Source of the DNA: Candidatus Methanoperedens sp.
GTDB lineage: Archaea; Halobacteriota; Methanosarcinia; Methanosarcinales; Methanoperedenaceae
DNA: 64,000 nt
Direction of reading: 5' to 3'
NCBI GenBank assembly: GCA_041491305.1
Contig: JBGPUU010000001.1
Location: 15,500-79,499, forward strand
A program made the position numbers and the translations under genes. Positions 13,373-64,000 of the stretch are shown here, piece after piece. Under the pieces are notes generated by a model. The model was given only the letters and a program-made list of their open reading frames with translations, was not told the origin of the DNA and did not search any database. The first letter of the stretch is position 1; each line of letters opens with the position of its first letter.

Positions 13373-13400
13373 TAAGAATTTATTAAAAGGAGGTTTTTAA

Positions 13401-16056: not shown

Positions 16057-16093
16057 ATCAAAAAAATTAAGGCAGTCCGAAGAAACCCGGGAA

Positions 16094-16771
16094 CTAACAA
16101 ATCTTCCCGATGATAGAAAGAACCTCCACGTCCGAAAGGTCGTACCAGTTCCTGTATGCATCTGCCACTGCAAAAGAATTCCCGTGCCTCACGTTCAAGC
16201 ATACAAGTTCATCTACTTGAAGAAGAACAAGCTCCACAGTTCTTTTTGAGGCTGTTGGAACAGCAACAATAATTTTCCCTGGCTTGTTTCTTTTTACAAA
16301 ACTGACAGCAGCAAGCATCGTATAGCCCGATGCAAGCCCGTCGTCTACAAGAATCACAATCCTGTCTTTCAAGACTGGAAAGGGTCTTCCTCCCCTGAAG
16401 ATCTGATCTCGCCTTTTGATTACCTCTTTCGTCTTTTCAGCCTGCTCCCTTATCTTATCTTCGGTAAGACCAAGCTGGGCGAGCAATCCTTCATTTAAAA
16501 TAATTTCCCCACCCAGCCCCATTGCACCAAAGCCTGCCTCGGGATTGTAAGGTATCTGGAGCTTTCTCACTATCATTAAATCCATGGGAAGATGAAGCGC
16601 AACCGCTATCTCATGAGCCACGGGCACACCTCCGGAAGGGATTCCAAGAACTATGCCGCCAGAATCCCTGTAATGTACCAGTTTTCCGGCAATGAGGCTA
16701 CCTGCTTCGGTTCTGTTTTCAAAGACATGGAGTTTATTTCTCAGAGAAACTTCTTCAATCAGCCTGCCCAT
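16094..16771 (-). CDS. Type I phosphoribosyltransferase family protein
   Basis: FENRTEAG, LGIPSGGVPVA, VRKL, VILVDDGLASGYT (PRPP loop). Confidence 0.88.
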   Translation of the reverse strand: MGRLIEEVSLRNKLHVFENRTEAGSLIAGKLVHYRDSGGIVLGIPSGGVPVAHEIAVALHLPMDLMIVRKLQIPYNPEAGFGAMGLGGEIILNEGLLAQLGLTEDKIREQAEKTKEVIKRRDQIFRGGRPFPVLKDRIVILVDDGLASGYTMLAAVSFVKRNKPGKIIVAVPTASKRTVELVLLQVDELVCLNVRHGNSFAVADAYRNWYDLSDVEVLSIIGKIC

Positions 16772-42047: not shown

Positions 42048-42061
42048 TTTCTTTCCACTTG

Positions 42062-44613: not shown

Positions 44614-46125
44614 TCACATCTTCTTAAGCATAAGGATAGTCTCTTTGAGTCTTTCTACATGGGATGCGTACTGCGGTGGCGCAAATTCAATAAATTTCTG
44701 GAAAGATAATATCGCTTCATCACCCCGACCCAAACTGAACAGCGCAACGCCTTTGTTATTCCATGCGTCAGCATATCGTGGGTTTATGTCAAGAGCCTTA
44801 TCATAGCAGGCTATTGCTTCATCACCCCTTCCCAAACTATGTAGTACAACGCCTTTGTTAAGCCATGCCAAGGCATATCGTGGGTTTATATCAAGAGCCT
44901 TATCATAACAGGAAATCGATTCAGTAGACCGGTGCAATTTATAAAATGTATTGCCTTTGTTGTACCATGCCTTGTCATCTCGTGGATTAAGATCAAGACC
45001 CTTATCGTACCAGGTTATAGCTTCAGCTTGCCGGCCCAAATCATCCAGAGCAGTGCCCTTGTTACACCATATCTTGAAATCTCGTGGGTTTATGTCAAGA
45101 GCCTTATCATAGCAGGTTATGGCTTCCTCAGATCTGTCCAGTTCAGCCAGAGCATTGCCTTTGTTGATTAAATCATCCACTTCCAATTCCCCACCAGATT
45201 CTTCAGGAATCGTTTCACCAGTCAAATCAAAATATATCTTAGAAATATCCTGTCGCATCTCGCTGAAGTTCTGGTATCTTTTTGCAGGATCCTTCTCAAG
45301 GCACTTGCCAATGAGAACAGCAAGTTCAGCAGGAATACCTTGCTTGATAGGAATTGGAGATTCCTTCAAATGCATCTCTTTCCATGAACTCTTCCGTTGG
45401 TAAGGATAGCTGCTTGTAACCATCTGGTAGAGAACTATGCCAAAGGCATAGATATCAGCCTTTGTATCGATTTCCTTGCATGTGAACTGTTCAGGAGCCA
45501 TGTACGGCAAAGTCCCGGCAGTACTGCTCTGGACATAGCTCACATCTCGTGGAACCGCTATCTGTTCAGCTCTTGCTTCTATTGCCTTCGCCAGACCAAA
45601 ATCTGTTATCTTTACAGTTTTATCTCTGGTAAGTAATATGTTACCAGGCTTGATATCCCGATGAACAAGTTTCATTTTATTATATGCATAATACATCCCA
45701 TTGCAGAACTGGATAGCGAAGTTCAGGGCTAAGGGAAGGTCTAACATCTTTGTGTAGAGCCAGTCATCCAGATTCCCGCCTGCTGCGTATTCCACGAAAA
45801 TATAAGGCTGGCCCTCGATGTTTTTTACATAGTACGGTCTGACAATGTTCTTATGCTTATCAAGCTTGATCCATTTTTCGGCTTCACTGGTAAAATCATC
45901 CCTTGCCCTCTGGCTCTGTAGGAACTTTGTCTGAAAGGTTTTGATTGCAAGCGGCCCTTTATCTTCATGATCATAGCATATATACACAACCCCGAAGCCG
46001 CCTCTTTTTATTTTATGTATCTCATACCTGTTCTCGATCCTATCTCCAATCTGCCACCTCTCGTGCTCTTCTATTCCAGCGACCTCTTTTTTCCTTCTGA
46101 GGCTATCAAGCAGTTCCACGTCCAT
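44614..46125 (-). CDS. Ser/Thr protein kinase with TPR repeats
   Basis: GGFGVV, LAIKT, HRDIKPGN, DFG, GTLPYMAPEQ; 102-bp DNA repeats encoding CYDKALDINPR. Confidence 0.92.
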   Translation of the reverse strand: MDVELLDSLRRKKEVAGIEEHERWQIGDRIENRYEIHKIKRGGFGVVYICYDHEDKGPLAIKTFQTKFLQSQRARDDFTSEAEKWIKLDKHKNIVRPYYVKNIEGQPYIFVEYAAGGNLDDWLYTKMLDLPLALNFAIQFCNGMYYAYNKMKLVHRDIKPGNILLTRDKTVKITDFGLAKAIEARAEQIAVPRDVSYVQSSTAGTLPYMAPEQFTCKEIDTKADIYAFGIVLYQMVTSSYPYQRKSSWKEMHLKESPIPIKQGIPAELAVLIGKCLEKDPAKRYQNFSEMRQDISKIYFDLTGETIPEESGGELEVDDLINKGNALAELDRSEEAITCYDKALDINPRDFKIWCNKGTALDDLGRQAEAITWYDKGLDLNPRDDKAWYNKGNTFYKLHRSTESISCYDKALDINPRYALAWLNKGVVLHSLGRGDEAIACYDKALDINPRYADAWNNKGVALFSLGRGDEAILSFQKFIEFAPPQYASHVERLKETILMLKKM

Positions 46126-46446: not shown

Positions 46447-47529
46447 TTAACATGGCATTGGCTGTTTCACTGTTATTATTCGTGTCCTCCCATTTTTACC
46501 CCGGTTCTCAATACATGTATCGACCAATTTGGCATTGATTAACTTATCCAGCGCTTTATGAAATGTAGTATATCCTTTTTTTGTTCGCTTATGAAATTCG
46601 ATAAATAGCTCACCGGCATGCGATGTACCCATTTCAGACGCTGCGTTGAGGAGCGCGGTTTCTGTATCGGTGAATACTTTCAGATATCTTTTCAATCTAT
46701 CTTCCGAGGCTTCGATGAGTGCGGTATCAACATCCGTGAAATCAACGGTCTTAGAAGCGCGCATTTCTGCGTTAATAACAGATCTTTTCAGAAGATCGAT
46801 ACCAAACCTGATATCTCCTTTAGGTACGGTGCAGCCGGTTATTTTCTCGATAATTCCTTTCTCAACAACATTCGGGTATAACCCGATTTTTGCCCGCCTA
46901 TCCAGGATGTCAAAGGTTTCGTCCCAGGTATATCCGGGAAATTTAACGATTTTTGGTGTGAATATCGAGGTTATATCATCCAGTGGTGGATATGAAATGC
47001 TGTGTACGGCGGCTAAACCGATATTAAGGGGATACTCTTCATAAAGTCTTAAAATATTATTCACTACATCATGGAAAATCCCCCTTGAAATCAAGAAATC
47101 CGCATCATCCAGTATCACAAACATTGTCTTGTTTTTGGCAGTGAGCGTCTCCGCTATCTTTTCGTATAATTTTTTCAATGCTATTCCGGAGGGGGGCAGC
47201 TCTATTCCTGTCATCTTCCTGTAGATTTCCGCAAGTACGGAGTAATGAGTCTGCGTATACCTGCAGTTGATATAAGCCAAAATGAGGCTTGAAGGGGATA
47301 TCTGTTCTGCTAGCTCGATAATTTTTTTGACCGAAGTGGTCTTTCCTGTTCCAGGCGGACCAATGCATATTATGTTCTGCGGATGCTTGCCATCTATCCC
47401 GGGCGCTATAGCATAACCTATTCTTTTTATCTGCAGGTCTCGATAGAGAAACTCATCCGGGACGTATCCAAGCTCAAATATTTCCTTATCCTTAAACAGC
47501 GTCTGCTCCCATGCAAGTAGATTTTTCAT
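46447..47529 (-). CDS. cdc6: Orc1/Cdc6 family replication initiator
   Basis: GPPGTGKT (Walker A), YINC, ILDDAD (Walker B-like), GDIRFGI, C-terminal wHTH. Confidence 0.9.
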   Translation of the reverse strand: MKNLLAWEQTLFKDKEIFELGYVPDEFLYRDLQIKRIGYAIAPGIDGKHPQNIICIGPPGTGKTTSVKKIIELAEQISPSSLILAYINCRYTQTHYSVLAEIYRKMTGIELPPSGIALKKLYEKIAETLTAKNKTMFVILDDADFLISRGIFHDVVNNILRLYEEYPLNIGLAAVHSISYPPLDDITSIFTPKIVKFPGYTWDETFDILDRRAKIGLYPNVVEKGIIEKITGCTVPKGDIRFGIDLLKRSVINAEMRASKTVDFTDVDTALIEASEDRLKRYLKVFTDTETALLNAASEMGTSHAGELFIEFHKRTKKGYTTFHKALDKLINAKLVDTCIENRGKNGRTRIITVKQPMPC

Positions 47530-47631
47530 TTTTTATCACCCAAAGCACGTTTTTTGTTTTTTTCCGATACCCGTTTTTTGCGAAAATTGTTTTAATTGTT
47601 ATTAAAGATTCAATGAGCGGGGTGAAAGTAT

Positions 47632-48816
47632 TCAAGTGCCTGTTTTCCTTGATTCCATGCGGCTCTTTATCAGCTCCAAAATAGCAGGTTCCTGCCTTAT
47701 CAAATCCATAAGTTCTATTGTGAGAGATACCTTTTCCTTATCAATATTTATTGCTGTAACAAGGTCAAGCGCTGCGCCGCATTTATAGCAGAACTTCCCT
47801 GTAGTTCCATTTACTGTGCTACACCTGGGGCATTGAATAGGAGCCAGTTCTTTATCCTGTGGTGTTGAGGTTTTTGAAATACCATATGCCCTGAGAAGCG
47901 TTTCGTCTAAGTTCTTGCCTGAACGATGAACATATATCCGGGTCATTCTGGATCCCTGTATCCAGCCAAAGTATTCATCCATCATCGAATCTGTGAGAAT
48001 TCCAGACTTCTCGGTAGCACTGGTGTGCCTGAAAAGATGGTTATATACCCGTTTTTGGATGCCAGCTCTCTTGGCAATTCTTTTTATCCGCATGGTTATT
48101 GCAGGATACAGGAGCTGCTGACAGGTGGTGCCTTCGAGCCCGTTAGTTCTTCCATTTTCTCCCAGTCTTATCCAAAAAGGAGCATTGGGATCTAATTTCT
48201 TGGGATGGACATTAAGCCATGCACTGAGATAAGGAGATGAGAATATTGCCCTGACGCGTCTCATTCCAGTCTTCCCGTTGACTATGAAAATTGCGCCATA
48301 ATCATCAAAATGAACGTCCTTAATCTGCAAGGTTGCAAGTTCTCCTATCCTGCAGCCTGTTTCGTATAGAGCCGCTATCATAGCTTTGTCCATAGGATGC
48401 ATGGCGCAATCTATCATTTTCAAGACTTCTTCTCTTGTGAAAATGTCCGGGATTTTATTCTTGACATTTTTCATGATAATCAGATTTCCAAGGTCGTTTT
48501 TCCCTGTTTGTTTAAGAAATGTTTTGAAAATCTGCTTGTATGTGTATTTTGTCCAGTCTGCTATATCCTTGCGCTGCACCCATTCTAAAAAAGAGTAAAT
48601 ATCTTCTTTTTCCAAAGAATCGAGATCCTTGTTCAATTTCCCGCTTATTATTCTAAGAACAGAAATACACCTTTCTATTCTGGCCTTACTAAATTCTTTT
48701 ATAAACAACTGCCTTTCATAATCGAATATTATCTTCTTATTGTTTCCACTGATGCTGGCATTTCTAATATTTTCTTCTGCGCGTTTCAGTATTCCCTCGT
48801 AACCATAGATATCCAT
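47632..48816 (-). CDS. Tyrosine recombinase/integrase with C-terminal Zn ribbon
   Basis: ETGCRIGEL, GKTGMR, HLFRH, FGW...SRM...YVH (catalytic R-K-H-R-W-Y); CPRC...CYKC. Confidence 0.92.
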   Translation of the reverse strand: MDIYGYEGILKRAEENIRNASISGNNKKIIFDYERQLFIKEFSKARIERCISVLRIISGKLNKDLDSLEKEDIYSFLEWVQRKDIADWTKYTYKQIFKTFLKQTGKNDLGNLIIMKNVKNKIPDIFTREEVLKMIDCAMHPMDKAMIAALYETGCRIGELATLQIKDVHFDDYGAIFIVNGKTGMRRVRAIFSSPYLSAWLNVHPKKLDPNAPFWIRLGENGRTNGLEGTTCQQLLYPAITMRIKRIAKRAGIQKRVYNHLFRHTSATEKSGILTDSMMDEYFGWIQGSRMTRIYVHRSGKNLDETLLRAYGISKTSTPQDKELAPIQCPRCSTVNGTTGKFCYKCGAALDLVTAINIDKEKVSLTIELMDLIRQEPAILELIKSRMESRKTGT

Positions 48817-48926
48817 AGTTAACCACTCCAATCTGGTTTGAGAATATAATCGTGAGGTAAGTACTGGTGAAAGTGCACTATTGAAAGAATATTTGGCCTT
48901 TGTAGGGCGTTTAACAAAAATTTGAG

Positions 48927-49012
48927 CGCCGAGGTAGGGATTTGAACCCTAGCTTACCAGAAGGTAAAACAGGTCTCGAGCCTGCCGCGTTAGTCCGCTC
49001 TGCCACCTCGGC
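48927..49012 (-). tRNA. tRNA-Ser (anticodon CGA), no encoded CCA
   Basis: GCCGAGG/CCTCGGC acceptor stem, GCAGG-CTCGAGA-CCTGT anticodon arm, long variable arm TTACC/GGTAA, TAGGG-TTCAAAT-CCCTA T arm, discriminator G. Confidence 0.95.
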
Positions 49013-53442: not shown

Positions 53443-54234
53443 CTATGGCAGGTATCTTTTCTTTTCAGGATTGCTGACCGAATGATTAAAAGGTTGCGGG
53501 GGAAGAATGGTAATATTTACAGTGGTATCCGTATGGCATCCTTCGCATGTCCAGTATCCTCTTGAAATGAATCTGCTTGAACCGTTTGCATTGCCCGGTG
53601 TTCGTCCGAATGGCTGGCTAATTCCATAGCTTGAGGACTGGTTGCTGGCCTGTAGATAAAATGGCTGGTGTGCGTTTGACTGGCTTAAATTATATCCTGC
53701 TGCCGTAATGTTGGGGAAACTCCCGAGAATCTGCGGGCTGTTATCGGAATAAATCCTGTTTCCGTGGCACCTGTCGTCATCGCATGTTATGACTGTTATT
53801 CCCGTATGCGTGGTTGCGTTGAAGAGAGTGGCGTTATGGCAAAGCATGCAGATCTCGGCACTATCTATTTGTCCGTTCCTGTTCGCATCAAGGCTGACGT
53901 TTACCAATATATTCAGGTTGCTTGAGTTCTGCCACTTTCGTTCAGAGATGTTCCAGTTCCATACAATATTATTATAATCAGTTATGGAATTTCCATTGTA
54001 ACTTATCCCGCCAATGGAAAGATATGAGGTGTAATTAGCATTTCCAGCCGCAGCTTTATGTTTTTCATAAACATATCCGCTATGCTCAACCTCAGATAAT
54101 ACATCGGTATGGCATTTCTCGCATGAAACACTGCTGTAAAAGGTGTGCTGCCCTGCAAGAAGAGAAACCGTATTGGGCATCACGTATAAACCCAATATCA
54201 TCAAAGCAAAATATAATATGATTTTCCTGTTCAT
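53443..54234 (-). CDS. Tetraheme c-type cytochrome, candidate extracellular filament subunit
   Basis: Signal/TM then SLLAGQHTFY; CEKCH, CMLCH, CDDDRCH (CX4CH), CEGCH. Confidence 0.8.
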   Translation of the reverse strand: MNRKIILYFALMILGLYVMPNTVSLLAGQHTFYSSVSCEKCHTDVLSEVEHSGYVYEKHKAAAGNANYTSYLSIGGISYNGNSITDYNNIVWNWNISERKWQNSSNLNILVNVSLDANRNGQIDSAEICMLCHNATLFNATTHTGITVITCDDDRCHGNRIYSDNSPQILGSFPNITAAGYNLSQSNAHQPFYLQASNQSSSYGISQPFGRTPGNANGSSRFISRGYWTCEGCHTDTTVNITILPPQPFNHSVSNPEKKRYLP

Positions 54235-54238
54235 CTTA

Positions 54239-54676
54239 TCACCCCGAACTGTTTGCAAAGAATTGTTTTGCATGCCTGTACAGGGTCGCAGTATCGCCGG
54301 TTATGTAATGGGCCGACTGGTTCAACCCGCTGACGTTATTGCCGCCGTCATTGTGAATAGTGATATTTCCTGCATCATCATAATTTGAATGGCAGTTGGT
54401 GCAGTAGATATTCTTTGTAAGGTTATGCGCTGCATTGATATTGTAAATTTCAGTACTGTTAGGATTATAGCCATGGCATATACATCCCGCATTGGCGTGG
54501 GCGCTCACGCTCACGATTGATACCTTTGTAGGATGGCATTTTATGCAGAAATCTGTTGCTGTTGTTGTGTTTTTATAGACCGTATGGCTTCCTGAGAATA
54601 TCGCGTATGTTGTAAACATGGAGGCGGCTAACAGTACCCCGAAAATCGCAAACAGTAACAATATTTTCTTATCCAT
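54239..54676 (-). CDS. Small multiheme c-type cytochrome (2 CXXCH + 1 CXCH)
   Basis: Signal/TM then AIFSGSHTVY; CIKCH, CICH, CTNCH. Confidence 0.8.
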   Translation of the reverse strand: MDKKILLLFAIFGVLLAASMFTTYAIFSGSHTVYKNTTTATDFCIKCHPTKVSIVSVSAHANAGCICHGYNPNSTEIYNINAAHNLTKNIYCTNCHSNYDDAGNITIHNDGGNNVSGLNQSAHYITGDTATLYRHAKQFFANSSG

Positions 54677-54683
54677 ATTTACC

Positions 54684-57600
54684 TCATGAATATACCTTGT
54701 CCGGATATGTATGACAGTAATTACAATCTATGGTCTTATTGTAACCATAAGTGGCAATTGCGTTATTATAATATGACGAATCATGGCAGACGGTGCAGTC
54801 AGTGATATTTACAACATTTATTCCATTGTAATTATATGTGCTCGGACTGCTTGTTATGTTATGCCTGTCTGTCTCATTCTTTGGATCACTCTGGTAGGCA
54901 TGGCAGTCCTCGCATGCTTTTCTTGCGCCAATGTTATTATGTCCTTTCGTGTGGCAGTCCTGGCATGCCAATGAACCGTGCGGGCTCCCACTGAACATGG
55001 TCTGGTTCACGAATTTGTCCGGAGAACCTACCCCATTCATGTATTCATAGCTGAAATGGCAGCTTGTGCATAACCCTGTGTTTACATTATGAACAAATTC
55101 TTTTATAGTGCCGTCAGACAGGGATTTACCATGGCAGCCCTTGCACGTGGTATCGTTATAATCAGGTGTCAGGGAATGGTTATAATAGCCGCTCAAATTG
55201 TAAGGTGAATAGATTGAGGAGTTCGTAATCTCAGGAGGGACTGAAAGATTGACGCCGGTAAAGGCCTGAGTCATGTTTATGTAGATCATTCCGCTGTTTG
55301 AATAACCCTGATAGTGACATCCTGCACACCAGTTGCCGTTACCGGAAATCTGGGAATCCATAATGTTACTTCCGCTCCAGTTGGAGGGTCTTCCAAGGCC
55401 TGTTGCATTATGTTTTGAGTCGCCGTGGCAATAATCGCACATACTCTCCTGGCTTGTATTAGTCCAATACCCCTGCTGCGTGCCGTTCCAGAAAGAACTA
55501 TTCAGCGAGCTATTGCCATGCTGGACTGTAGAGACTTTTGGAGGCGTTTTTGACAGCTTTGAATCCAATGTATTTTGCTGGTGGCAATCGGTGCAATTTA
55601 CAGCGCTCTGGTTCCCGGTATCATATGTGCCATCAGGCTTGAGATATGTCATCGGATGGATATTTTTCTTATCCGGACCTGTATGGCATTCCGTGCAATT
55701 GACCGAATTGTTGTGCATTTCTTTATATGTTGTCACCGCTCCGGTATAATTTATGGTGCCATTTGATACATTCAGTCCATGGCAGGCCAGGCAATATGAA
55801 CTGTTTATATTGTTGATTTCAGGTTTAATTAATTGAGCGCCGTGCAGTGATGAATTTGTACTATTGTGACATTCGTTTACACTGCATGACGGGTTTGAGG
55901 AATTGTATCTCAGGCTGTGATTGGAAATGCTACTATTGGCAACGTCCTGGAATACGCTGCTGAATTCACCTGTTGCATTTCTGTGGCAGTATATACAATA
56001 ATCATAACTTCCCGCGGTGATTCCAAAGTTTGACCTGTTAGTGCCGTAATGGTAGAAGCTCGTGTTTCCTCCGCTAACACCAACCCCGTCGCTTGCGAAT
56101 GAGCCATAATCCGTATCATTATTGGGAGTTATCATTCCGGAAACATTTTCATGGCATCCCAGGCAGGAGGCAAGGTCGCTCGTCCGGTTATCCAGAGCAC
56201 TGATATTTGTGCCGTTCCTGTAATGGTTGGATATAATCGTTGCATTGTATGCTCCTGCATTGCTTCCATTTGCTAAGTGGCAGTCCGGGCAGGTATAGGG
56301 TGTATCTCTCTTATCCGGATGTGTGTTGTTAGCTACTGCGTAGCCGCTTGAGTTATGGCATGCCCAGCAGCTTGCGTTTATACCGTAGCCTGAAGCGTTA
56401 TTGCTGTTCAAGTTTGCATGCACGGATATGCTGAAATTCGAGCCGTCTATGTAATTCAGGCCAGTGAAGTTCTGGGGATTGGACTTGTTATGGCAGTCAA
56501 GGCATCCGGGACCGCCGCCGAGCACTACTTCGTTTGAATGGAAATCAACCGGTATGCTCTGGTTTCTGGTATGACAGGCATAGCATGAATCGCTGCTTAT
56601 TGTAAATCTATTCCCGAACATGTTGCTGGCGTTTACCTGCAAAGCATTGCCCCATCCATTTCTTATTGTTTCAACACTCTGGTTGTGGCAGAACAGGCAG
56701 TTCGTGGTAGTGGGCATGCGGTCTATGGGAACTGTCCAGTGAGGTGGATCGTACTTGCCACCTGGTCCATCCGGGTAGTTATACTGTGCATAGTAACCAC
56801 CGAAATTAGATTTGTTGAAATAAGGGGCTGCGTGACAGGTTCCTTCCCCGGTGACTGCATTGTAACTATAGCAAGTTGTGGGATATGTATCAGTGCCGCC
56901 CTGTGAGGGTACGCTTACGTTTGTGCCCGTTATGCTGGAATAATTCGTGTGGGAATAAACATAAGGCAGCGTATTGTTGATGTCGCTTCTCAGGGAATAG
57001 AAAGCTGTCCTGTTCGGTCCTGTGAATATGGAGCTTACGTTTATGTGACAGTTTTCGCAAAGTTTAACACTCTGGAGGTTAGCTGTGATCAAGCTGGGAT
57101 TTCCAGTGCCGTGGCAGGCATAGCAGTCTGACCCGTCCAGGGTGGCTGAATTATTTTCCCAGTCAAATCCTCCGCTTGTCTCCCAGCCGCCGTGTATTAT
57201 CCAGGGAAGCCGCAAGGGTTGGGAGTGTAAGGTTGTTGCATTGGTACCGTTGTGGCAGTTGCCACAGGACTGGGTTTTTGCAGGATGTCTTGTGATAATG
57301 GCGTACCATTCCGTTGCATTTACCTGGGATTTGTGACACAGCGAGCAGTCGATGCTGTTTTTGATAAGGCTTGTATTGGTGGAGTAGTGGGATATATTGG
57401 AATAGATGGCATCTATATTGTCGCCACCATTTATATAAAAACCACTTGTATTAAAACCACCCATGCTTTTTATGTGGCAGGCGGCGCAATCTACCGAAGA
57501 GTTCCAGAAATCCGAGGTTATCTTGTAGATATCCGTGGTATAGTTCGCCGGGATATGATTGTATATTTTCTTTTCAGTCAGGTCATTAATCCTGCCAGCA

Positions 57601-59129
57601 TTGGTGTATGTGAGGTTTACAGTCGCGTTATGGCATGCAACGCAGCCGGTAACTATTATTGTGGTGTTAAACTCTGTGCCGTTGGTATGGCAAGCCCAGC
57701 AGGCTTTGTCCACTAAATCCGAAAGCTCGGTCGTATTGGTTGCATTCCGGTTTAGATATTTATGGGTTGAATTCGAGGACGAATTCATTGATGAAACATC
57801 CACTTTAGCTATCGAATTTGTAGTATTTGATACGCCATGGCAATTAACACAGTCAGAAATACTCCCGCCCGGATGCGATATTACAAGCGATTCCTGCCCT
57901 GATATAGCAAAAGGGGACAGCGAACCGGTGCCGGCGCTTAACGTGCTGTTTGTAATGTCCCGGATAGTTTCAAGCTGCTCCCATTGTGTAACATTCCAGT
58001 GATATATAAAAAGTGTCCTTTCATCTATATTGTTAAGTTCGGCTTTGTTGTAGTGTATTGTTATTTCAGCAGATGAAAAAGATATATTCTCCGCGCTTAT
58101 CTCCACATATTTTACAACCCTTCCCGGAACCGGAACAGACACAGGGTTTCTTTTCCCGAAATCATCGAGAATGACTTTTCCTTTCCCGTGAACTGAAGCA
58201 TTTTCCAGTTTCAGGGCGGCATTTTTTGTGGGGATTGCATCAATTTTAAAGATTTTTGGATTATCCGGTGCTGCACTGGCTACTGGTATAAAAAAATCAA
58301 GGATTGAATAAAAAAATACTGCAGGCCCGGTGATAATCGGGAAAGCCACTCCGATTAGCCCGGAACTGTTTACCTTACGATAAGATTTGACAAGCGAATT
58401 ATTTTCAAATATCTCGACTGTTGAATTGACAAGAGAACCTGATGTATCTATGACATTGATATCCCACTCCGGGGAAGGTGCCACAATCGCAAAGACTGAC
58501 AAGGAATTCACTGTTGTACTAATGACATTATTTGCTACATCGATTTTTGTCGGCAGTTCGTTCCAAACCTGCCCGGCATTATCGTAACTGTAAATAGTAA
58601 GATTATTCACATCCAACCCTTTGACTTCCGTATCAGTGAATTTTATTGATATATCAACGTTAGAAAAAGAAACGCCGCCGGAATTGACTTCTACATACTT
58701 TACCGGCGTGCCGGGCGCTGATACATTTACGCTCCCGGGCTGGTTAATGCCGTAATTTTCCAGCACCACCCTTCCTTTTGGTGATTCCCCTGAAATCCGA
58801 AGATTGATTGATAATCCCTTGTTGGCAAAATCATCATAACTGATTACAGCGCCAGGAATTCCGTGCCAGCTTATAAGATTGACATTCGGTCTTGGCGGTC
58901 CGCTTGATACCCCTTCCCCGCTTAACGATATTGCACCGGTTAACGGATTTCCTGCGGCATCTGTGAATGTTATCTCGCCGCTTGTTTTTAGCGCTTCGGT
59001 CCGGGTTGGTATTGGAGGGAAATACAATAAAGCCGCAGCTATACCTGATAAAACTACAAACACAAGTATTATGAGCCTGGTTTTAGAGAGCCCTGCTCTA
59101 TCCCGTAAAATATCCATTTTTTTGACCAT
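54684..59129 (-). CDS. Large multiheme cytochrome c (26 CXXCH + CX11CH + CX4CH) with two N-terminal PGF-pre-PGF-like domains
   Basis: Motifs counted by hand; N-terminal TM segment; duplicated VKYVE...W..L.T......SLS.FAI domains. Confidence 0.9.
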   Translation of the reverse strand: MVKKMDILRDRAGLSKTRLIILVFVVLSGIAAALLYFPPIPTRTEALKTSGEITFTDAAGNPLTGAISLSGEGVSSGPPRPNVNLISWHGIPGAVISYDDFANKGLSINLRISGESPKGRVVLENYGINQPGSVNVSAPGTPVKYVEVNSGGVSFSNVDISIKFTDTEVKGLDVNNLTIYSYDNAGQVWNELPTKIDVANNVISTTVNSLSVFAIVAPSPEWDINVIDTSGSLVNSTVEIFENNSLVKSYRKVNSSGLIGVAFPIITGPAVFFYSILDFFIPVASAAPDNPKIFKIDAIPTKNAALKLENASVHGKGKVILDDFGKRNPVSVPVPGRVVKYVEISAENISFSSAEITIHYNKAELNNIDERTLFIYHWNVTQWEQLETIRDITNSTLSAGTGSLSPFAISGQESLVISHPGGSISDCVNCHGVSNTTNSIAKVDVSSMNSSSNSTHKYLNRNATNTTELSDLVDKACWACHTNGTEFNTTIIVTGCVACHNATVNLTYTNAGRINDLTEKKIYNHIPANYTTDIYKITSDFWNSSVDCAACHIKSMGGFNTSGFYINGGDNIDAIYSNISHYSTNTSLIKNSIDCSLCHKSQVNATEWYAIITRHPAKTQSCGNCHNGTNATTLHSQPLRLPWIIHGGWETSGGFDWENNSATLDGSDCYACHGTGNPSLITANLQSVKLCENCHINVSSIFTGPNRTAFYSLRSDINNTLPYVYSHTNYSSITGTNVSVPSQGGTDTYPTTCYSYNAVTGEGTCHAAPYFNKSNFGGYYAQYNYPDGPGGKYDPPHWTVPIDRMPTTTNCLFCHNQSVETIRNGWGNALQVNASNMFGNRFTISSDSCYACHTRNQSIPVDFHSNEVVLGGGPGCLDCHNKSNPQNFTGLNYIDGSNFSISVHANLNSNNASGYGINASCWACHNSSGYAVANNTHPDKRDTPYTCPDCHLANGSNAGAYNATIISNHYRNGTNISALDNRTSDLASCLGCHENVSGMITPNNDTDYGSFASDGVGVSGGNTSFYHYGTNRSNFGITAGSYDYCIYCHRNATGEFSSVFQDVANSSISNHSLRYNSSNPSCSVNECHNSTNSSLHGAQLIKPEINNINSSYCLACHGLNVSNGTINYTGAVTTYKEMHNNSVNCTECHTGPDKKNIHPMTYLKPDGTYDTGNQSAVNCTDCHQQNTLDSKLSKTPPKVSTVQHGNSSLNSSFWNGTQQGYWTNTSQESMCDYCHGDSKHNATGLGRPSNWSGSNIMDSQISGNGNWCAGCHYQGYSNSGMIYINMTQAFTGVNLSVPPEITNSSIYSPYNLSGYYNHSLTPDYNDTTCKGCHGKSLSDGTIKEFVHNVNTGLCTSCHFSYEYMNGVGSPDKFVNQTMFSGSPHGSLACQDCHTKGHNNIGARKACEDCHAYQSDPKNETDRHNITSSPSTYNYNGINVVNITDCTVCHDSSYYNNAIATYGYNKTIDCNYCHTYPDKVYS

Positions 59130-59289: not shown

Positions 59290-60126
59290 TCACGATGTTA
59301 AATAATCCGTATGACGTCCGCTGTATACATACCCGACACCGAATGCGGAAAATGCAAGTACGAAGATGCTGAAAATAATCAGCCATGCAATCCTTTTTCC
59401 GGTCCATCCCGCGTTCATCCGCAGGTGCAGGCAAATCCCGTATGTGAACCATGAAATTAAAGACCATGTCTCGATGGGGTCCCAGCCCCAGTACCTGCCC
59501 CATGTCTGGTTTGCCCAAATTGCTCCTGCCGCTATCATTATAGTAAGGGCGAAAAATCCCATCGCCACGAAATGATACATAAGATCGTCCATTGTTCTTA
59601 ATCCGGGAAGCCTTTCGTAAAATGAATCCTGGATTCCGGTATTTAACTGCTTCTCTTTCAATATATAAAGAGCAGCAGTGGCTGCCGCAACCATTACCGA
59701 CCCGAAGCCAAGGCTTGCAAAACCTACATGGGCTATCAGCCAGTAACTCTGGAGAGAAGCCGGTATCATCTGGATATCCCTTGAATAAGTCGAACCTATA
59801 GCCATCAGCAAAAAGGATGCAGGCAGCACTATAAATCCTGCAATCTTAATCTTTTCATATTTTTGCTGCGAAAATAAGAATATAACTACTGAAAACCATG
59901 CATATTTTGATAAAACCTCGTACATACTGATGTAGGGACCGTGCCCGGTTTCTATCCACCGAAGGGCTATGGAAACACTGTGGAACAACAAGCCGGCAAA
60001 CGCGGTACTGACTGCAAGATTTATTCTTTCTTCTTTCTTGAAAACAAGGCAGTACAGGTATATAGCCGAACTGAGCGCATAAAGCACTGCAGCGGCCACG
60101 TAGATAATCCATTCAGTCTGTGCCAT
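59290..60126 (-). CDS. ccsA: Cytochrome c synthase CcsA/ResC (System II)
   Basis: WWD domain GAIWANQTWGRYWGWDPIETWSLISW; conserved His (HVGFA, SGRH). Confidence 0.92.
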   Translation of the reverse strand: MAQTEWIIYVAAAVLYALSSAIYLYCLVFKKEERINLAVSTAFAGLLFHSVSIALRWIETGHGPYISMYEVLSKYAWFSVVIFLFSQQKYEKIKIAGFIVLPASFLLMAIGSTYSRDIQMIPASLQSYWLIAHVGFASLGFGSVMVAAATAALYILKEKQLNTGIQDSFYERLPGLRTMDDLMYHFVAMGFFALTIMIAAGAIWANQTWGRYWGWDPIETWSLISWFTYGICLHLRMNAGWTGKRIAWLIIFSIFVLAFSAFGVGYVYSGRHTDYLTS

Positions 60127-61525
60127 GTAACCTCTTCATTTTATCGACAATACCTGAATATTCTTCTTCATATAAAGACCTGAACTTATCAGCCCGCCCC
60201 CCGATATAAATCTCCATTGCATCGGAATCACTGACAACCTCAACCCATATCCTCTTAGGGATTATAAAGAAAGATAACATGAGGCTGAATATCATAAATC
60301 CGACTCCCGCATACACAAGAAGCGTCCCGTCATCCTTCACCACGTAGAAATTACTCCAGTATTTTATATCATAAAATCCCAGGGTTCTGTCATAGCCAAG
60401 GTAATTATCGTGTATTTTTATTGTATCATTCAGCCTGAGCGTACCATCGTATATCTGCTTTCCCCCGTCAAATATCCTCAAAAACATGATTGGTGTTTTT
60501 TCGGCTTCGGATTCCATTAGTTGTCCTGTTAAAGGCGCAGTCATGTATACCATCAATCCCCCTTCAAGACCCGTATTCCCCATTTGGAAAGATGAGACAT
60601 ACCTCCCGCTGTTATCGAGGTCTTGTGCGGTTATATACGAGCCGGAATATACCGTCCCGTCCGGATTCTTCAACAACAGCAGCGGCGCAAGACCATAGAC
60701 ATTCCCAAGAAACGTGTATCCATTATAAGTCATCATGTGATTTGAAAATACAATATCAGTTTTCATCTTCTGGCCATTCTCTATTATAGAAAGCTCGCCT
60801 GCTGCTCCGCGAGGCGTATTTGTTTCATCCTTGTAATCAGGGAAGAATTTCAGAAGTGAAATACCGAATCCCTGGTGGTTTTCGTTAAAAAAATGACCCT
60901 CGTTGATAAACATATAGTTCGCGTGCTCTTCTTCCAGGGTCTGCCCTTCTATTAATCGCATATCCCCTTCCATCCTGCCCAAACTTCCGTAAACCACAGC
61001 TATTATGATGAAAAGTATGCTGATGTGAAACAGCGATGTGCCCAGTATCCCGAACCTGTTTTTTTCCGCAAGAATGCAATTCCCCTGCTGCCGTACCTTA
61101 TACCCTGCTGACTTAAGTAAAGAACCCGTTTCAGAAATAACACTATTGCTATCTTTTTTTGTTTTAATTACCGAGCTGTTCTCAAGTCCTGTAATGTATG
61201 CCTTTTTCTGGAATTGCTGGGCGTTGAGCCTTCGAAAAGCGCTTTTCAGCATCGTTCTTGTGCAGAAAAGAGTATTAACGACAAGGAGCGCCACTATGCT
61301 TAAAAATATAACTGATGAATAAAGATGGGTAAAACCGATTTTCTCAAAGGTTTCAGCCTGCCCCGGATTCGTAGATTTCCATTTATCATATACGTCAGGT
61401 TTGAGCTGCGATTGCTGGGGTACATAGGTCCCGATTATCGAAAATACGATAATGAGAGTAATAAGAACTATCGCAAGTTTTCTGGAGCTAAAAAAAGTAG
61501 CGATTTTCCCGGTACTAAAATCCAT
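60113..61525 (-). CDS. resB: Cytochrome c biogenesis protein ResB/CcsB (System II)
   Basis: SSRKLA...SIIGTYVPQ, NTLFCT, FHISIL, large extracytoplasmic domain, DDGTLLVYAG...KRIWV; overlaps ccsA. Confidence 0.88.
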   Translation of the reverse strand: MDFSTGKIATFFSSRKLAIVLITLIIVFSIIGTYVPQQSQLKPDVYDKWKSTNPGQAETFEKIGFTHLYSSVIFLSIVALLVVNTLFCTRTMLKSAFRRLNAQQFQKKAYITGLENSSVIKTKKDSNSVISETGSLLKSAGYKVRQQGNCILAEKNRFGILGTSLFHISILFIIIAVVYGSLGRMEGDMRLIEGQTLEEEHANYMFINEGHFFNENHQGFGISLLKFFPDYKDETNTPRGAAGELSIIENGQKMKTDIVFSNHMMTYNGYTFLGNVYGLAPLLLLKNPDGTVYSGSYITAQDLDNSGRYVSSFQMGNTGLEGGLMVYMTAPLTGQLMESEAEKTPIMFLRIFDGGKQIYDGTLRLNDTIKIHDNYLGYDRTLGFYDIKYWSNFYVVKDDGTLLVYAGVGFMIFSLMLSFFIIPKRIWVEVVSDSDAMEIYIGGRADKFRSLYEEEYSGIVDKMKRLHGTD

Positions 61526-61609: not shown

Positions 61610-62077
61610 ATGACGCCTCTAAATAAAATAATCGTCCTGATTGCCGTGGGTTCAGTTCTCGTTTTATCGGCAGCCTGGTGGGATTCACAATCAGGAAACA
61701 ATTCGGCTTTTATCAAACTTGGCGGTGTTTCATTTCATACATCAATAGAACCTGGAATCACAGAGGCAAAGAACTCAAGCAAACCTGTTTTCCTGTATTT
61801 CAGGTCGGAAACGTGTTACTGGTGCATAAGATTTGAAAATGAAGCTTTATCTGATAAAAGGGTCATCGATAAACTCAATAATAATTTTGTTCTTATTTCG
61901 ATTGATACATTCAAACAAAAAAATGTTTCCCTGAATCTCAATGTACGAACCACCCCGTATATGATTTTCTTTACAAAAGACGGCGAAGAGATATCAAGAA
62001 TCCCGGGTTACCTGCAAACTGATGATTTCCTTGTACAATTAAATTCCGTATCGGACAAACTCAACCGGAGCTCTTAG
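61610..62077 (+). CDS. Membrane-anchored thioredoxin family protein
   Basis: N-terminal TM; TCYWC, RTTPY cis-Pro loop, RIPGY. Confidence 0.85.
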   Translation: MTPLNKIIVLIAVGSVLVLSAAWWDSQSGNNSAFIKLGGVSFHTSIEPGITEAKNSSKPVFLYFRSETCYWCIRFENEALSDKRVIDKLNNNFVLISIDTFKQKNVSLNLNVRTTPYMIFFTKDGEEISRIPGYLQTDDFLVQLNSVSDKLNRSS

Positions 62078-63521
62078 TTGCGGTTATATATTTTTCAATA
62101 AACTTCCGAACCTCAGGAGGCATCTCGCCTTTCATCTGGTTTGAGAGGTAAGAATCGTTGATGAGCAGCCGCGTGACCTCTATCATGTAGTTTTTCTTGA
62201 ATTCACTCATCTCCTCAATTTTTTCAAGCTTTCCCATGTAAAAATCCCGGAATCCCTTTAAAAGATGAATATTTAGTTCCTCCCGCGTCATGTTAATGGG
62301 CTTGACTATCGGTTCGATAAGATTGTATTTTGAATAATCAAATTCCTCTATGAATGGTGCAAGTTCAGGATAAATATCAGAATAAGGCCATGGGGCAATT
62401 GCAAGGAAAAACGCAAGGTCAGGATTATAGTACTGCGCCAGTTTTCGTGCCGTCTCTATGGATCCGGGCGTTTCTTCAGGCATCCCGAGGACAAAGGACG
62501 TTTCCGAAATAATCCCGGTATTGTTTATCAATTCAATCGCTTCCCTTGACTGCTCTACCCTGATATTTTTCTGATAGCGGTCAAGCGTATCCTGGCTTGC
62601 GGATTCTGCTCCCACGTAAATATGCAGGATTCCCGCTTTTTTGTATTTATCAATTATATCCTTATCACGCAGGATGTCGTCCACCCTTGTTTCCATCAAT
62701 ATTTCAAGGTCAAGTTCTTTCGCGATAAGAAGATCAAGGATTTTTTCCCACCGTTTGCGGTCATACGTCGGTGTTTCATCGGCTATCATGGCAACATCCA
62801 CGCCGTAATTGCTGTTTAAGAATTCAAGCTCGGATACGAAGTTTTCAGGGCTTCTCCCTCTCCATTTCTCCCTCCAGAAAAGACGCTGCGAACAGAATGT
62901 GCATTTCTGGGTACAGCCCCTTGAAGAACTTACGACTGCAAGTGTGGAATTTTTCTTTGTCTTGAATGTATAATCCTTCCACTCTATAAGGTTCCATGCC
63001 GCAGGCATTACGTCCAGATTTGATACGAGCGGCCGTTCTTTCGTGCAGATGGTTTTCCCATCCCGCACATAAGCAATTCCCGCGACATCCGGGCTTAATC
63101 CTTCGAAAACCTGGCTGAGAAGTTCTGATGTGGTGATTTCACCTTCGCCGCGTATTATATAATCTACAACGCTGCTCTCTTTTTGCAGGATTTCCTTCCA
63201 GCAGAACGTGGGATGTATGCCTCCAAGGAGCGTAATTATTTCCGGGTTAACCTCTTTAGCAATTCTTAGAACCGAAATAGCATCGTAAAGGCTTGATGTA
63301 TATGCCGCTGTGCCCACTACATCCGGATTGGTTTCTTTTATGCGCCTTTTGATGTCGTCAAAAGTATGATATTTTGACATCGCATCGTATATGCTGACCT
63401 CATACCCGGCTTTTTGCAGGCTTCCGGCAACGTACACCATGCCAAGAGGCATCCATGTGCCTGCGGATTCGAGTACGCCGCAGTGGTATGGCGGTGTTAT
63501 TAACAGGACTTTATTGGACAT
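62061..63521 (-). CDS. Cobalamin-binding (class B) radical SAM enzyme
   Basis: PLGMVYVAG, PDVVGTAAYT, GGIHPT, GEGE, SSRGCTQKCTFC, GAES; ATG 63521. Confidence 0.9.
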   Translation of the reverse strand: MSNKVLLITPPYHCGVLESAGTWMPLGMVYVAGSLQKAGYEVSIYDAMSKYHTFDDIKRRIKETNPDVVGTAAYTSSLYDAISVLRIAKEVNPEIITLLGGIHPTFCWKEILQKESSVVDYIIRGEGEITTSELLSQVFEGLSPDVAGIAYVRDGKTICTKERPLVSNLDVMPAAWNLIEWKDYTFKTKKNSTLAVVSSSRGCTQKCTFCSQRLFWREKWRGRSPENFVSELEFLNSNYGVDVAMIADETPTYDRKRWEKILDLLIAKELDLEILMETRVDDILRDKDIIDKYKKAGILHIYVGAESASQDTLDRYQKNIRVEQSREAIELINNTGIISETSFVLGMPEETPGSIETARKLAQYYNPDLAFFLAIAPWPYSDIYPELAPFIEEFDYSKYNLIEPIVKPINMTREELNIHLLKGFRDFYMGKLEKIEEMSEFKKNYMIEVTRLLINDSYLSNQMKGEMPPEVRKFIEKYITATKSSG

Positions 63522-63549
63522 TTCGTTTCTTTGAATACCGCTATGATAA

Positions 63550-64000
63550 TTATTTTTTGTGTTTCTTCCAGAACCATAGCGCAACTATTGCTATTACTAA
63601 CGAAAATGCAGCTATGTAGGTTAAATATGTTTTTGTTACGGTTTTAACAATCTCTTTCCCATGGAAACTTTTTAATTCTCCTTCGACATGGCATCCCAGG
63701 CAATCCTTATTGCCAACATTACTATGCTGCGAATCCGAAGGCAGGGCTCCGGGATTGCCCCATGCTTTTCTAATATTTTCATTTTCCTGGATATGGCAGA
63801 AAATGCAATTTTTTGATTCAGGCATGAAATCGACAGGAGAATTCCAGTGGTAAGGGTCACCCCTGTTAAATATTGTGCCTGTATAATTTGTATTGAATGA
63901 AAAATAACCGCCTGCTTTTTCTTTATTCCCGAACGTCACTCCATGGCATGAACCCTGGCCGGTTGCTGCATCAAATCCGAAGCAGGAAGACCTTGTATTT
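63550..64000 (-). CDS. C-terminal part of a membrane-anchored multiheme cytochrome (5' end outside window)
   Basis: Frame open from the window end: CFGFDAATGQGSCH (CX11CH), CIFCH, CLGCH, C-terminal TM + WKKHKK. Confidence 0.85.
   Translation of the reverse strand, partial: NTRSSCFGFDAATGQGSCHGVTFGNKEKAGGYFSFNTNYTGTIFNRGDPYHWNSPVDFMPESKNCIFCHIQENENIRKAWGNPGALPSDSQHSNVGNKDCLGCHVEGELKSFHGKEIVKTVTKTYLTYIAAFSLVIAIVALWFWKKHKK

What the first reader, a model, noticed from the sequence alone, without database searches (positions are those of the whole stretch)
62061..63521. Class B (B12) radical SAM enzyme co-transcribed with a cytochrome, inside the maturation locus
Seen: it starts 29 bp after the membrane MHC stop, on the same strand, and abuts the thioredoxin/ResB/CcsA genes. 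Established: class B radical SAM enzymes are mostly C-methyltransferases. Inference: a candidate heme- or cytochrome-modifying enzyme (for example methylation) or a lipid/quinone modifier that tunes extracellular electron transfer.
Basis: inference. Interest (0 to 1): 0.55.

Follow-up and report, generated by a model that had tools for sequence, protein, structure and literature searches.

The report
BchE-like radical enzyme beside haem-attachment genes
This methane-oxidising archaeon carries an uncharacterised vitamin-B12-type radical SAM enzyme, the closest relative of the chlorophyll ring-closing enzyme BchE, and it travels with a second haem-attachment machine (ResB/CcsB) in archaea and at least six named bacterial phyla, which points to an undescribed step in making electron-conducting cytochromes.

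Summary
Window 62061-63521 (minus strand) encodes a 486-aa B12-binding radical SAM protein. It starts 28 nt after the stop of a membrane-anchored multihaem cytochrome and lies beside thioredoxin, ResB and CcsB genes. The organism is a Candidatus Methanoperedens.

The protein is not BchE. It scores 401 bits against a 481-bit cut-off, is 37-38% identical to true BchE, and the genome has no BchM or BchH. It belongs to a separate, highly conserved family.

Of 45 informative short-form loci, 38 have ResB/CcsB within 3 kb, in archaea and at least six named bacterial phyla, with different gene orders. Among 284 Methanosarcinales genomes, the enzyme and this ResB type occur together in 27, apart in 3 and are both absent from 254. 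The genome already has System I, AhbC and AhbD, so the module is an add-on.

Two fusions point to a small hydrophobic substrate that carries a carboxylate: a LuxE/PaaK adenylating domain in Thermincola isolates, and an SRPBCC ligand-binding domain in Nitrospirota.

My best reading is cytoplasmic haem tailoring or hand-off upstream of CcsBA export. The chemistry is unknown. This scan has noted the same pairing on other genomes. I found no paper on it.

The parts
62061..63521 (-). 486-aa class-B-type (B12-binding domain plus radical SAM) enzyme, sister family to BchE. This is the finding itself.
   Evidence: Pfam PF02310 and PF04055. TIGR02026 BchE 401 bits, below the 481 cut-off. C203xxxC207xxC210 motif. 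AF2 model pLDDT 88.5 with class-B architecture. Orthologues are 78-95% identical in Methanoperedens and 60-66% in bacteria.
63550..64000 (-). 3' part (149 aa) of a roughly 305-aa membrane-anchored cytochrome with six CxxCH motifs plus one CX11CH motif. It is cut by the window end, and the contig itself ends about 200 nt further on.
   Evidence: CxxCH motifs and a C-terminal transmembrane helix. Full-length orthologues directly precede the radical SAM gene in 10 other loci. CX11CH motif CFGFDAATGQGSCH.
61610..62077 (+). 155-aa thioredoxin-like protein with an N-terminal membrane segment (ResA/CcsX-like apocytochrome thiol reductase candidate). It is convergent with the radical SAM gene and overlaps it by 17 nt.
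   Evidence: Pfam Thioredoxin_2, Thioredoxin_7 and Thioredoxin. Sequence read. The same convergent arrangement is conserved in Methanoperedens loci.
60113..61525 (-). ResB (CcsB), the System II haem-handling membrane protein. It is the only ResB in the genome.
   Evidence: PF05140, 187 bits. Single copy in the genome. It co-occurs with the radical SAM gene in 27 of 28 radical-SAM-positive Methanosarcinales genomes.
59290..60126 (-). CcsB/CcsA (ResC) haem exporter and cytochrome c synthase subunit, with a canonical WWD domain and conserved histidines.
   Evidence: TIGR03144 193.6 bits, above the 187.6 cut-off. WGRYWGWDPIETWSL motif and conserved His columns.
54684..59129 (-). 1481-aa cytochrome with 26 CxxCH motifs, a PGF-pre-PGF domain, one CX11CH motif and one CX4CH motif.
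   Evidence: Pfam and NCBIfam hits. Motif scan.
54239..54676 (-). 145-aa cytochrome with two CxxCH motifs.
   Evidence: Weak cytochrome Pfam hits. Motif count. The same gene order is seen in L009.
53443..54273 (-). 276-aa protein with three CxxCH motifs and a CX4CH motif. It is the last gene of the cytochrome island.
   Evidence: Motif scan.

Best explanation
The gene encodes a cytoplasmic radical SAM enzyme with a cobalamin-type domain, from an uncharacterised family whose nearest characterised relative is the tetrapyrrole cyclase BchE. The family is a conserved accessory of System II cytochrome c maturation (ResB/CcsB). In Methanoperedens it belongs to an optional module of radical SAM, thioredoxin, ResB and CcsB that was probably acquired from bacteria. 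The module sits on top of the native System I and a complete sirohaem-dependent haem pathway. I infer that the enzyme acts in the cytoplasm on haem, or a close haem precursor, before CcsBA exports it and attaches it to multihaem cytochromes. It could tailor a side chain, most plausibly a propionate by analogy with BchE, or a methyl or meso carbon if it is a methylase like many class-B enzymes. It could instead hand haem over to the exporter. What is shown: the family identity, the fold, the intact cluster motif, the conserved linkage and co-occurrence, and the domain fusions. What is inferred: the substrate, the reaction and the benefit, such as tuned redox potential or a special haem for extracellular electron transfer.
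For: (1) Family. TIGR02026 BchE is by far the best model (401 bits; the next is 138). The gene is the most BchE-like of the 13 B12-radical-SAM matches in the genome, scoring 400 bits against 218 for the next. It is 37-38% identical to genuine BchE over about 90% of its length. Trees give a separate, supported clade (SH-aLRT 98; local support 98), and both this clade and BchE have much shorter stems than other class-B paralogues.
(2) Linkage. 38 of 45 informative short-form loci have ResB/CcsB within 3 kb. These come from Methanoperedens, ANME-2, Actinomycetota, Elusimicrobiota, Acidobacteriota (including Aminicenantes), Planctomycetota and Thermodesulfobacteriota. Gene order differs between groups and stop and start codons often overlap.
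(3) Co-occurrence. In 284 Methanosarcinales genomes both genes are present in 27, the radical SAM gene alone in 1 (a 66%-complete genome), ResB alone in 2 (fragments with stop codons) and neither in 254.
(4) The partner is the machine, not one cytochrome. Locus L023 has radical SAM, Trx, ResB, CcsB, CcmE and CcmF with no cytochrome gene within 10 kb. Only 13 of the 23 radical-SAM-positive family genomes also have the adjacent cytochrome type.
(5) The module is an add-on. The genome has CcmE, CcmF and CcmC, and has AhbC and AhbD above their cut-offs.
(6) Small-molecule substrate. The Nitrospirota long form carries a C-terminal SRPBCC ligand-binding domain in 19 loci. In Thermincola potens and T. 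ferriacetica isolates the enzyme is fused to a LuxE/PaaK carboxylate-adenylating domain. LuxE-like genes also sit in the CcsB-radical SAM cluster of L046. Haem is hydrophobic and has two carboxylates.
(7) Strong constraint. The enzyme is much more conserved than ResB between the same genome pairs (92 vs 88%, 80 vs 64%, 70 vs 40%, 65 vs 37%).
Against: No biochemical, mass-spectrometric or structural report of a modified haem c in these organisms turned up in nine literature searches. I know of none, and published multihaem structures that I recall show ordinary haem c. Co-occurrence inside Methanoperedens may simply reflect one transferable block. About half of Methanoperedens species lack the module and still have many cytochromes, so it is not needed for ordinary maturation. 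Nitrospirota long-form members are not linked to ccs genes (0 of 8 informative loci). A few loci have menaquinone genes nearby. Cobalamin binding and catalysis are untested, and the best structural match, AprD4, has a B12-like domain that, as I recall, does not bind cobalamin.
Confidence: 0.5

Rival explanations
1. The enzyme modifies the apocytochrome, or another protein of the module, in the cytoplasm before Sec export. An example would be C-methylation or another radical modification near the haem-binding motifs, as the class-B enzymes of peptide natural-product pathways do.
For: Class-B peptide methylase models give moderate scores (ApyD 127 bits, rSAM_ocin_1 111 bits). In Methanoperedens the gene directly follows a conserved six-haem cytochrome gene. 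The unusual CX11CH motif occurs in this genome only in the cytochromes flanking the module.
Against: The neighbouring cytochromes differ completely between lineages: six-haem anchored, 11-haem doubled-CxxCH, 14-19-haem, or none within 10 kb. Bacterial clusters lack CX11CH. Only 13 of 23 radical-SAM-positive genomes have the adjacent cytochrome type. The SRPBCC and LuxE fusions point to a small molecule. The BchE score is three times any peptide-modifier score.
Confidence: 0.15
2. The enzyme tailors a quinone or membrane lipid used in extracellular electron transfer. Its position next to ccs genes would then reflect a shared respiratory island rather than a shared pathway.
For: In L057 and L064 a hepS, B12-radical SAM, menG (UbiE), hepT set follows the module. 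UbiE lies 5-9 kb upstream in L024 and L027, and a polyprenyl synthase lies in L039. The SRPBCC family includes quinone- and lipid-binding proteins (from memory). LuxE's classical substrate is a fatty acid (established knowledge).
Against: Menaquinone genes are near the gene in only about 5 of 80 loci, against 42 with ResB. The radical SAM gene inside the men operon belongs to a different, distant family. The near-perfect genome-level co-occurrence is with ResB. Hopanoid and lipid class-B models score far below BchE.
Confidence: 0.15
3. The enzyme is a redundant or alternative enzyme of ordinary haem b synthesis, for example an oxygen-independent coprohaem or coproporphyrinogen decarboxylase, kept next to the haem consumer.
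For: BchE, HemN and AhbD all start by abstracting hydrogen from a tetrapyrrole propionate side chain (established knowledge). All carrier lineages are anaerobes that I recall using coprohaem-based pathways.
Against: This genome has AhbC (765 bits) and AhbD (584 bits) above their cut-offs. Of 25 bacterial carrier genomes, 19 also have a full-length AhbD-like gene scoring at least 350 bits. Half of Methanoperedens species lack the enzyme.
Confidence: 0.08
4. It is a genuine BchE, the Mg-protoporphyrin IX monomethyl ester cyclase, as some databases annotate it.
For: JGI and some NCBI records name orthologues that way. TIGR02026 is the best-scoring model.
Against: The score is below the curated cut-off (401 against 481). 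The family forms a separate clade from true BchE. The 93.8%-complete genome has no BchM (55.6 bits against 158.9) and no BchH. The host is a non-phototrophic archaeon.
Confidence: 0.01

Closest known systems
BchE (TIGR02026), anaerobic Mg-protoporphyrin IX monomethyl ester oxidative cyclase
   Same: Same domain order: N-terminal B12-binding domain, then the radical SAM core, then a helical C-terminal part. It is 37-38% identical over about 90% of the length and shares the N-terminal PxYHxGxxExAGxW motif. BchE is the best-scoring curated model. Both presumably act on a tetrapyrrole.
   Different: The score is below the curated cut-off and the family forms a separate clade. It lacks BchE's C-terminal extension (BchE is 553 aa or longer). 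It occurs in non-phototrophs with no Mg-branch genes. Its neighbours are ResB/CcsB and cytochromes rather than photosynthesis genes.
Dedicated System II haem lyases of Wolinella succinogenes (NrfI for CxxCK, CcsA1 for the CX15CH of MccA)
   Same: An extra ResB/CcsB set is encoded next to particular multihaem cytochromes, in addition to a general maturation system. In this genome the flanking cytochromes are the only ones with a long-spaced CX11CH motif.
   Different: As far as I recall, those systems have no radical SAM partner. Here the radical SAM-ccs pairing also occurs where the cytochromes have only CxxCH motifs and where this ResB is the only one in the genome. CX11CH-type cytochromes also occur in four genomes that lack the module.
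HemW, the radical SAM family haem chaperone (HemN-like)
   Same: A radical SAM family protein related to a tetrapyrrole enzyme that serves haem delivery to respiratory proteins. This is a precedent for a non-biosynthetic, haem-handling role.
   Different: HemW belongs to a different radical SAM class with no B12 domain, and sequence similarity is only weak (E = 1e-4). HemW serves haem b proteins, not cytochrome c maturation.
Structurally solved class-B and B12-domain radical SAM enzymes (TsrM, OxsB, TokK, CysS, MgmA, AprD4)
   Same: The overall fold of the AF2 model matches these (Foldseek E 1e-19 to 1e-23, TM 0.6-0.7).
   Different: Sequence identity is only 14-20%, and their substrates are unrelated (tryptophan, nucleoside, carbapenem, peptide, aminoglycoside).

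Membership tests
Radical SAM superfamily | CxxxCxxC motif that binds the [4Fe-4S] cluster, within a partial TIM-barrel core | tested here: met
   C203-x3-C207-x2-C210 is invariant across 43 family members. PF04055 scores 90 bits. The AF2 model matches radical SAM structures.
Class B (cobalamin-dependent) radical SAM | N-terminal Rossmann-type B12-binding domain fused to the radical SAM core | tested here: met
   PF02310 scores 100 bits over residues 14-134. Top fold matches are TsrM, OxsB, TokK, CysS and MgmA.
Class B (cobalamin-dependent) radical SAM | Actual binding and use of cobalamin | not testable with these tools
   Class-B enzymes have no universal ligand motif. The best structural match, AprD4, has a similar domain that, as I recall, does not bind B12.
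BchE (TIGR02026 equivalog) | Score at or above the curated cut-off of 481.35 bits | tested here: not met
   401 bits over model positions 2-453 of 497.
BchE (TIGR02026 equivalog) | Falls inside the clade of BchE from phototrophs | tested here: not met
   The two form separate clades, with the target family at SH-aLRT 98 and BchE at 100. The split is reproduced with added representatives.
BchE (TIGR02026 equivalog) | Pathway context: Mg-chelatase (BchH) and BchM are present to supply the substrate | tested here: not met
   There is no BchH match. The best BchM-like match scores 55.6 bits against a 158.9 cut-off, in a 93.8%-complete genome.
Hopanoid methylases HpnR/HpnP and other named class-B equivalogs | Score above the curated cut-off | tested here: not met
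   HpnR scores 138 bits against 650 and HpnJ 120 against 578. All other models also fall far below their cut-offs.
System II cytochrome c maturation module (ResB/CcsB with accessory genes) | Conserved physical linkage and co-occurrence with ResB and CcsA/CcsB | tested here: met
   38 of 45 informative short-form loci are linked within 3 kb. Both genes are present in 27 of the 30 Methanosarcinales genomes that have either.
System II cytochrome c maturation module (ResB/CcsB with accessory genes) | Demonstrated requirement for, or effect on, cytochrome c maturation | not testable with these tools
   This needs genetics or biochemistry. I found no report in the library.

The most novel reading that the evidence does not exclude
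The family makes a chemically new haem, for example one with an oxidised, cyclised or methylated side chain, that only the co-inherited CcsBA exports and attaches. Some multihaem cytochromes of extracellular electron transfer in ANME archaea, Thermincola and many uncultured anaerobes would then carry a non-canonical haem c with altered redox or stacking properties. In lineages that have the LuxE-like adenylating partner, a haem propionate would first be activated, echoing the BchM/BchE logic of chlorophyll ring E formation.
Probability: 0.25. Interest if true: 0.9.

Novelty: new variant of a known kind. Interest (0 to 1): 0.62.

Why it matters
Cytochrome c maturation is usually described as three closed systems, none of which includes a radical SAM enzyme. 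Here a strongly conserved sister of BchE is inherited together with the System II haem exporter-lyase. The carriers are organisms that live by extracellular electron transfer: Methanoperedens, ANME-2, Thermincola and many sediment anaerobes. That pattern suggests a missing step of haem tailoring, quality control or delivery.

If the enzyme alters haem, three things would change. Redox and conductivity models of multihaem "wires" would need revising. It would explain why an archaeon that already has System I keeps a second system. It would also supply a component that may be needed to express such cytochromes in other hosts. The idea is directly testable, because a fused version exists in the cultured electricigen Thermincola potens JR.

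Tried and rejected
1. Substitute for AhbD or HemN in haem b synthesis. Rejected. This genome has AhbC and AhbD above their cut-offs, and 19 of 25 bacterial carrier genomes have a full-length AhbD-like gene.

2. Genuine BchE. Rejected.

3. The module exists only to attach haem to CX11CH sites. Partly rejected. In this genome the motif is confined to the flanking cytochromes, but bacterial clusters lack it and four Methanoperedenaceae genomes have that cytochrome type without the module. I did not check whether the motif is retained in those four genomes.

4. A universal small membrane partner. The CopD-like 'HD...KH' protein lies beside the gene in 19 loci but is absent from this genome.

5. 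Neighbours of the unlinked copies (L017, L019, L053, L054) and of the Nitrospirota long form. These are housekeeping genes and give no clue.

6. The radical SAM fusion to the unknown 560-aa protein (P0127). It rests on one Logan contig and may be a gene-calling artefact, so I did not use it as evidence.

7. Literature. Nine full-text searches found nothing on this family.

I reconstructed neighbourhoods with my own crude ORF caller on loci from the search for related loci. That caller sometimes picks antisense ORFs, as in L041, L043 and L048.

Full report
**Observation**

The window holds a minus-strand ORF at 62061-63584 when read from a TTG. Alignments of orthologues begin at MxKKVLLITPPYH.

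Pfam finds a B12-binding domain (residues 14-134, 100 bits) and a Radical_SAM domain (198-361, 90 bits). The cluster motif C203xxxC207xxC210 is present and is invariant in 43 relatives.

The gene upstream on the same strand ends with TAA at 63552-63550, 28 nt before the ATG. It encodes CxxCH motifs and a C-terminal transmembrane helix. The window, and almost the contig, end inside that gene.

Downstream lies a thioredoxin-like gene (61610-62077). It is on the plus strand, convergent with the radical SAM gene and overlapping it by 17 nt. After it come ResB (60113-61525), CcsB (59290-60126), a 1481-aa cytochrome with 26 CxxCH motifs and a PGF-pre-PGF domain (54684-59129), and two small cytochromes, all on the minus strand.

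**Organism and family**

Close homologues (78-95% identity) come from Candidatus Methanoperedens. ANME-2 archaea have homologues at 70-73%, and bacteria of several phyla at 60-66%.

Among curated models, BchE (TIGR02026) is by far the best hit at 401 bits over positions 2-453 of 497. That is below its 481-bit cut-off. The next model, HpnR, scores 138 bits. Within the genome this gene is the most BchE-like of the 13 B12-radical-SAM matches, scoring 400 bits against 218 for the next.

Genuine bchE genes fetched from plasmids of purple bacteria and a cyanobacterium are 37-38% identical over about 90% of the length. In maximum-likelihood trees the target family is a supported clade (SH-aLRT 98) distinct from true BchE (100). 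Both have much shorter stems than the other class-B paralogues.

The genome, which is 93.8% complete, has no BchH and no BchM above the cut-off. The protein is a sister of BchE, not BchE.

The AlphaFold model is confident (pLDDT 88.5, pTM 0.89). It matches the solved B12-domain radical SAM enzymes AprD4, TsrM, CysS, MgmA, OxsB and TokK at 14-20% identity.

**Neighbourhoods elsewhere**

I used the search for related loci on one genome per species, which gave 80 loci with 10-kb flanks. I then applied a simple ORF caller and clustered the products by BLAST.

ResB homologues lie in 42 loci and CcsB homologues in 37. Counting only short-form family members whose flanks are informative, 38 of 45 have ResB or CcsB within 3 kb, and two more have one within 4.2 kb.

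The linked loci come from Methanoperedens, ANME-2, Actinomycetota including Coriobacteriia, Elusimicrobiota, Acidobacteriota including Aminicenantes, Planctomycetota and Thermodesulfobacteriota. Gene order differs between groups:

- In bacteria and ANME-2 the order is typically ResB, CcsB, sometimes a small membrane protein, then the radical SAM gene, often with overlapping stop and start codons.
- In Methanoperedens the order is radical SAM, then a convergent thioredoxin gene, then ResB and CcsB.

In a complete Phycisphaerales genome and an Actinomycetes MAG the linked ResB is the only ResB. One Nitrospirota subclade has a longer form of about 645 aa and is not linked (0 of 8 informative loci).

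**Co-occurrence in the archaeal order**

I searched 284 Methanosarcinales genomes. The enzyme is present in 28 and this ResB type in 29.

| Pattern | Genomes |
|---|---|
| Both present | 27 |
| Enzyme only (a 66%-complete genome) | 1 |
| ResB only (fragments with stop codons) | 2 |
| Neither | 254 |

Only 21 of 48 other Methanoperedens species have the enzyme, so the module is optional. Related genomes are not independent, and part of this pattern may reflect one transferable block.

The archaeal clade nests inside bacterial ones, which fits acquisition from bacteria. Between the same genome pairs the enzyme is far more conserved than ResB (92 vs 88%, 83 vs 70%, 80 vs 64%, 70 vs 40%, 65 vs 37%). 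It is therefore under strong constraint.

**What the module is added to**

The genome also has System I genes: CcmE, a 765-aa CcmF-like gene and CcmC-like genes. It has AhbC (765 bits) and AhbD (584 bits) above their cut-offs. Ordinary haem b synthesis and ordinary cytochrome c maturation therefore do not need this enzyme.

Of 25 bacterial carrier genomes, 19 also have a full-length AhbD-like gene. This argues against the idea that the enzyme replaces the anaerobic coprohaem decarboxylase.

The CcsB protein has the canonical WWD motif and the conserved histidines.

**Which partner matters**

In Methanoperedens a cytochrome of about 305 aa, with six CxxCH motifs and a membrane anchor, directly precedes the enzyme gene in 11 loci counting this window.

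This cytochrome and the large one downstream share a CX11CH motif (C[FY]x[FY][DN]xxxGxG[ST]CH). In this genome the motif occurs only in these flanking cytochromes. This recalls the dedicated System II lyases of Wolinella, which serve long-spaced motifs.

The link is loose, however:

- Bacterial clusters have only CxxCH cytochromes.
- Only 13 of the 23 enzyme-positive Methanoperedenaceae genomes have this cytochrome type, and four genomes have it without the module.
- Locus L023 has the enzyme, thioredoxin, ResB, CcsB, CcmE and CcmF in a row, with no cytochrome gene within 10 kb.

The constant partner is the ResB/CcsB machine.

**Clues to the substrate**

A search of 1.84 billion representative proteins shows about nine full-length 50%-identity clusters in the family. 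True BchE forms the next tier, at about 335 bits. Three forms stand out.

1. The Nitrospirota long form has a C-terminal SRPBCC (Polyketide_cyc2) domain, a fold that binds hydrophobic small molecules. It is present in all 19 long-form loci.
2. P0128 fuses the enzyme to a LuxE/PaaK-type adenylate-forming domain. The cluster holds proteins from the isolates Thermincola ferriacetica and Thermincola potens JR in three independent records, so the fusion is real. Its radical SAM half falls inside the target family. Two LuxE-like genes also lie between CcsB and the family member in locus L046, together with a second B12-radical SAM and a CopD-like membrane protein.
3. P0127 fuses the enzyme to an unknown 560-aa protein. 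It rests on one contig and I did not rely on it.

These fusions favour a small, hydrophobic substrate with a carboxylate over a protein substrate. Haem, with its two propionates, fits. So would some lipids or quinone precursors.

A small membrane protein with invariant His-Asp and Lys(-His) positions accompanies the enzyme in 19 loci. It gives weak CopD matches and is absent from this genome.

**Explanation**

I conclude with high confidence that this is an uncharacterised BchE-sister radical SAM family that is a conserved accessory of System II cytochrome c maturation.

With moderate confidence (about 0.5), I infer that it acts in the cytoplasm on haem or a near precursor before export by CcsBA. 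It may tailor a side chain or hand the haem over. The chemistry is open. BchE oxidises and cyclises a propionate ester, whereas many class-B enzymes methylate.

The rivals, in order of likelihood, are apocytochrome modification and quinone or lipid tailoring, then a redundant haem-synthesis enzyme, and last a true BchE. The last two are largely excluded.

**Prior knowledge**

Nine full-text searches found no paper on this family or on a radical SAM partner of ResB/CcsB. The library is limited to open-access papers and preprints.

Earlier notes of this scan describe the same pairing on other genomes, and two follow-up agents reached a similar reading. I treated those notes as leads only. The LuxE lead was tested here and it held.

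**Verdict**

It is a new variant of a known kind: System II maturation with a conserved radical SAM accessory. Its biochemical function has not been shown.

Noticed in passing
window 63550-64000 and 54684-59129; G000 contig C57: A conserved CX11CH motif (C[FY]x[FY][DN]xxxGxG[ST]CH) occurs in this genome only in the cytochromes that flank the radical SAM-ResB-CcsB module (35 ORFs with at least two CxxCH motifs were scanned). CX4CH motifs (CDDDRCH, CSVNECH) also occur in the island.
   Followed up: partly
G000 contig C57, about 8303-16560 (outside the window): Contig C57 carries a 1674-aa cytochrome with 25 CxxCH motifs, a 1007-aa protein ending in the six-haem module, and then the first 82 residues of the radical SAM gene at 95% identity before the contig ends. 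This mirrors the upstream part of locus L009. C57 is probably the continuation of the window's contig, or a strain variant that broke the assembly.
   Followed up: partly
window 46447-49012: A tRNA-Ser (CGA) gene lies next to a tyrosine-integrase gene (47632-48831) and an Orc1/Cdc6-like ATPase gene (46447-47529). This looks like an integrated element at a tRNA gene, a few kb from the cytochrome island.
   Followed up: no
window 21768-22679: A SPASM-domain radical SAM gene scores 219 bits on AhbD and 143 bits on AhbC, both below cut-off. It is a NirJ/Ahb-like paralogue of unknown role.
   Followed up: no
window 36443-38431 and 44614-46125: Two Ser/Thr protein kinase genes are fused to long TPR arrays, and further TPR proteins lie nearby (40929-42140).
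   Followed up: no
L077:9618-9977, L040:2441-2878, L014:14340-14690 and 16 other loci: A membrane protein of about 125 aa with invariant His-Asp in the first helix and Lys(-His) in the last sits between CcsB and the radical SAM gene in many bacteria and one Methanoperedens-type locus. It gives weak CopD matches (8 of 12 members, best E 4e-4) and is absent from this genome.
   Followed up: partly
L057:7576-9006, L064:8553-9851, L032:6787-9381, L046:2753-4069, L080:1114-2460, L086:1722-3041: A second, distant B12-radical SAM family (430-476 aa) recurs inside the same ccs clusters, so some bacteria have two or three such enzymes per cluster.
   Followed up: partly
L064:13440-17499 and L057:12505-15974: A hepS, B12-radical SAM (573 aa), menG/UbiE, hepT arrangement: a class-B radical SAM gene is inserted in a menaquinone side-chain operon right after the ccs-radical SAM module.
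   Followed up: no
L020:11637-21458: An ORF of at least 3274 aa (it runs to the locus end) with 69 CxxCH motifs directly follows the radical SAM gene in one Methanoperedens-related MAG.
   Followed up: no
L023:7096-9174, L067:4150-9594, L061:12824-18343: FTR1/FtrD-like iron permease genes with Fe-S domains and MacB/FtsX-type ABC transporter genes recur next to the module in Methanoperedens, Nitrospirota and Acidobacteriota.
   Followed up: no
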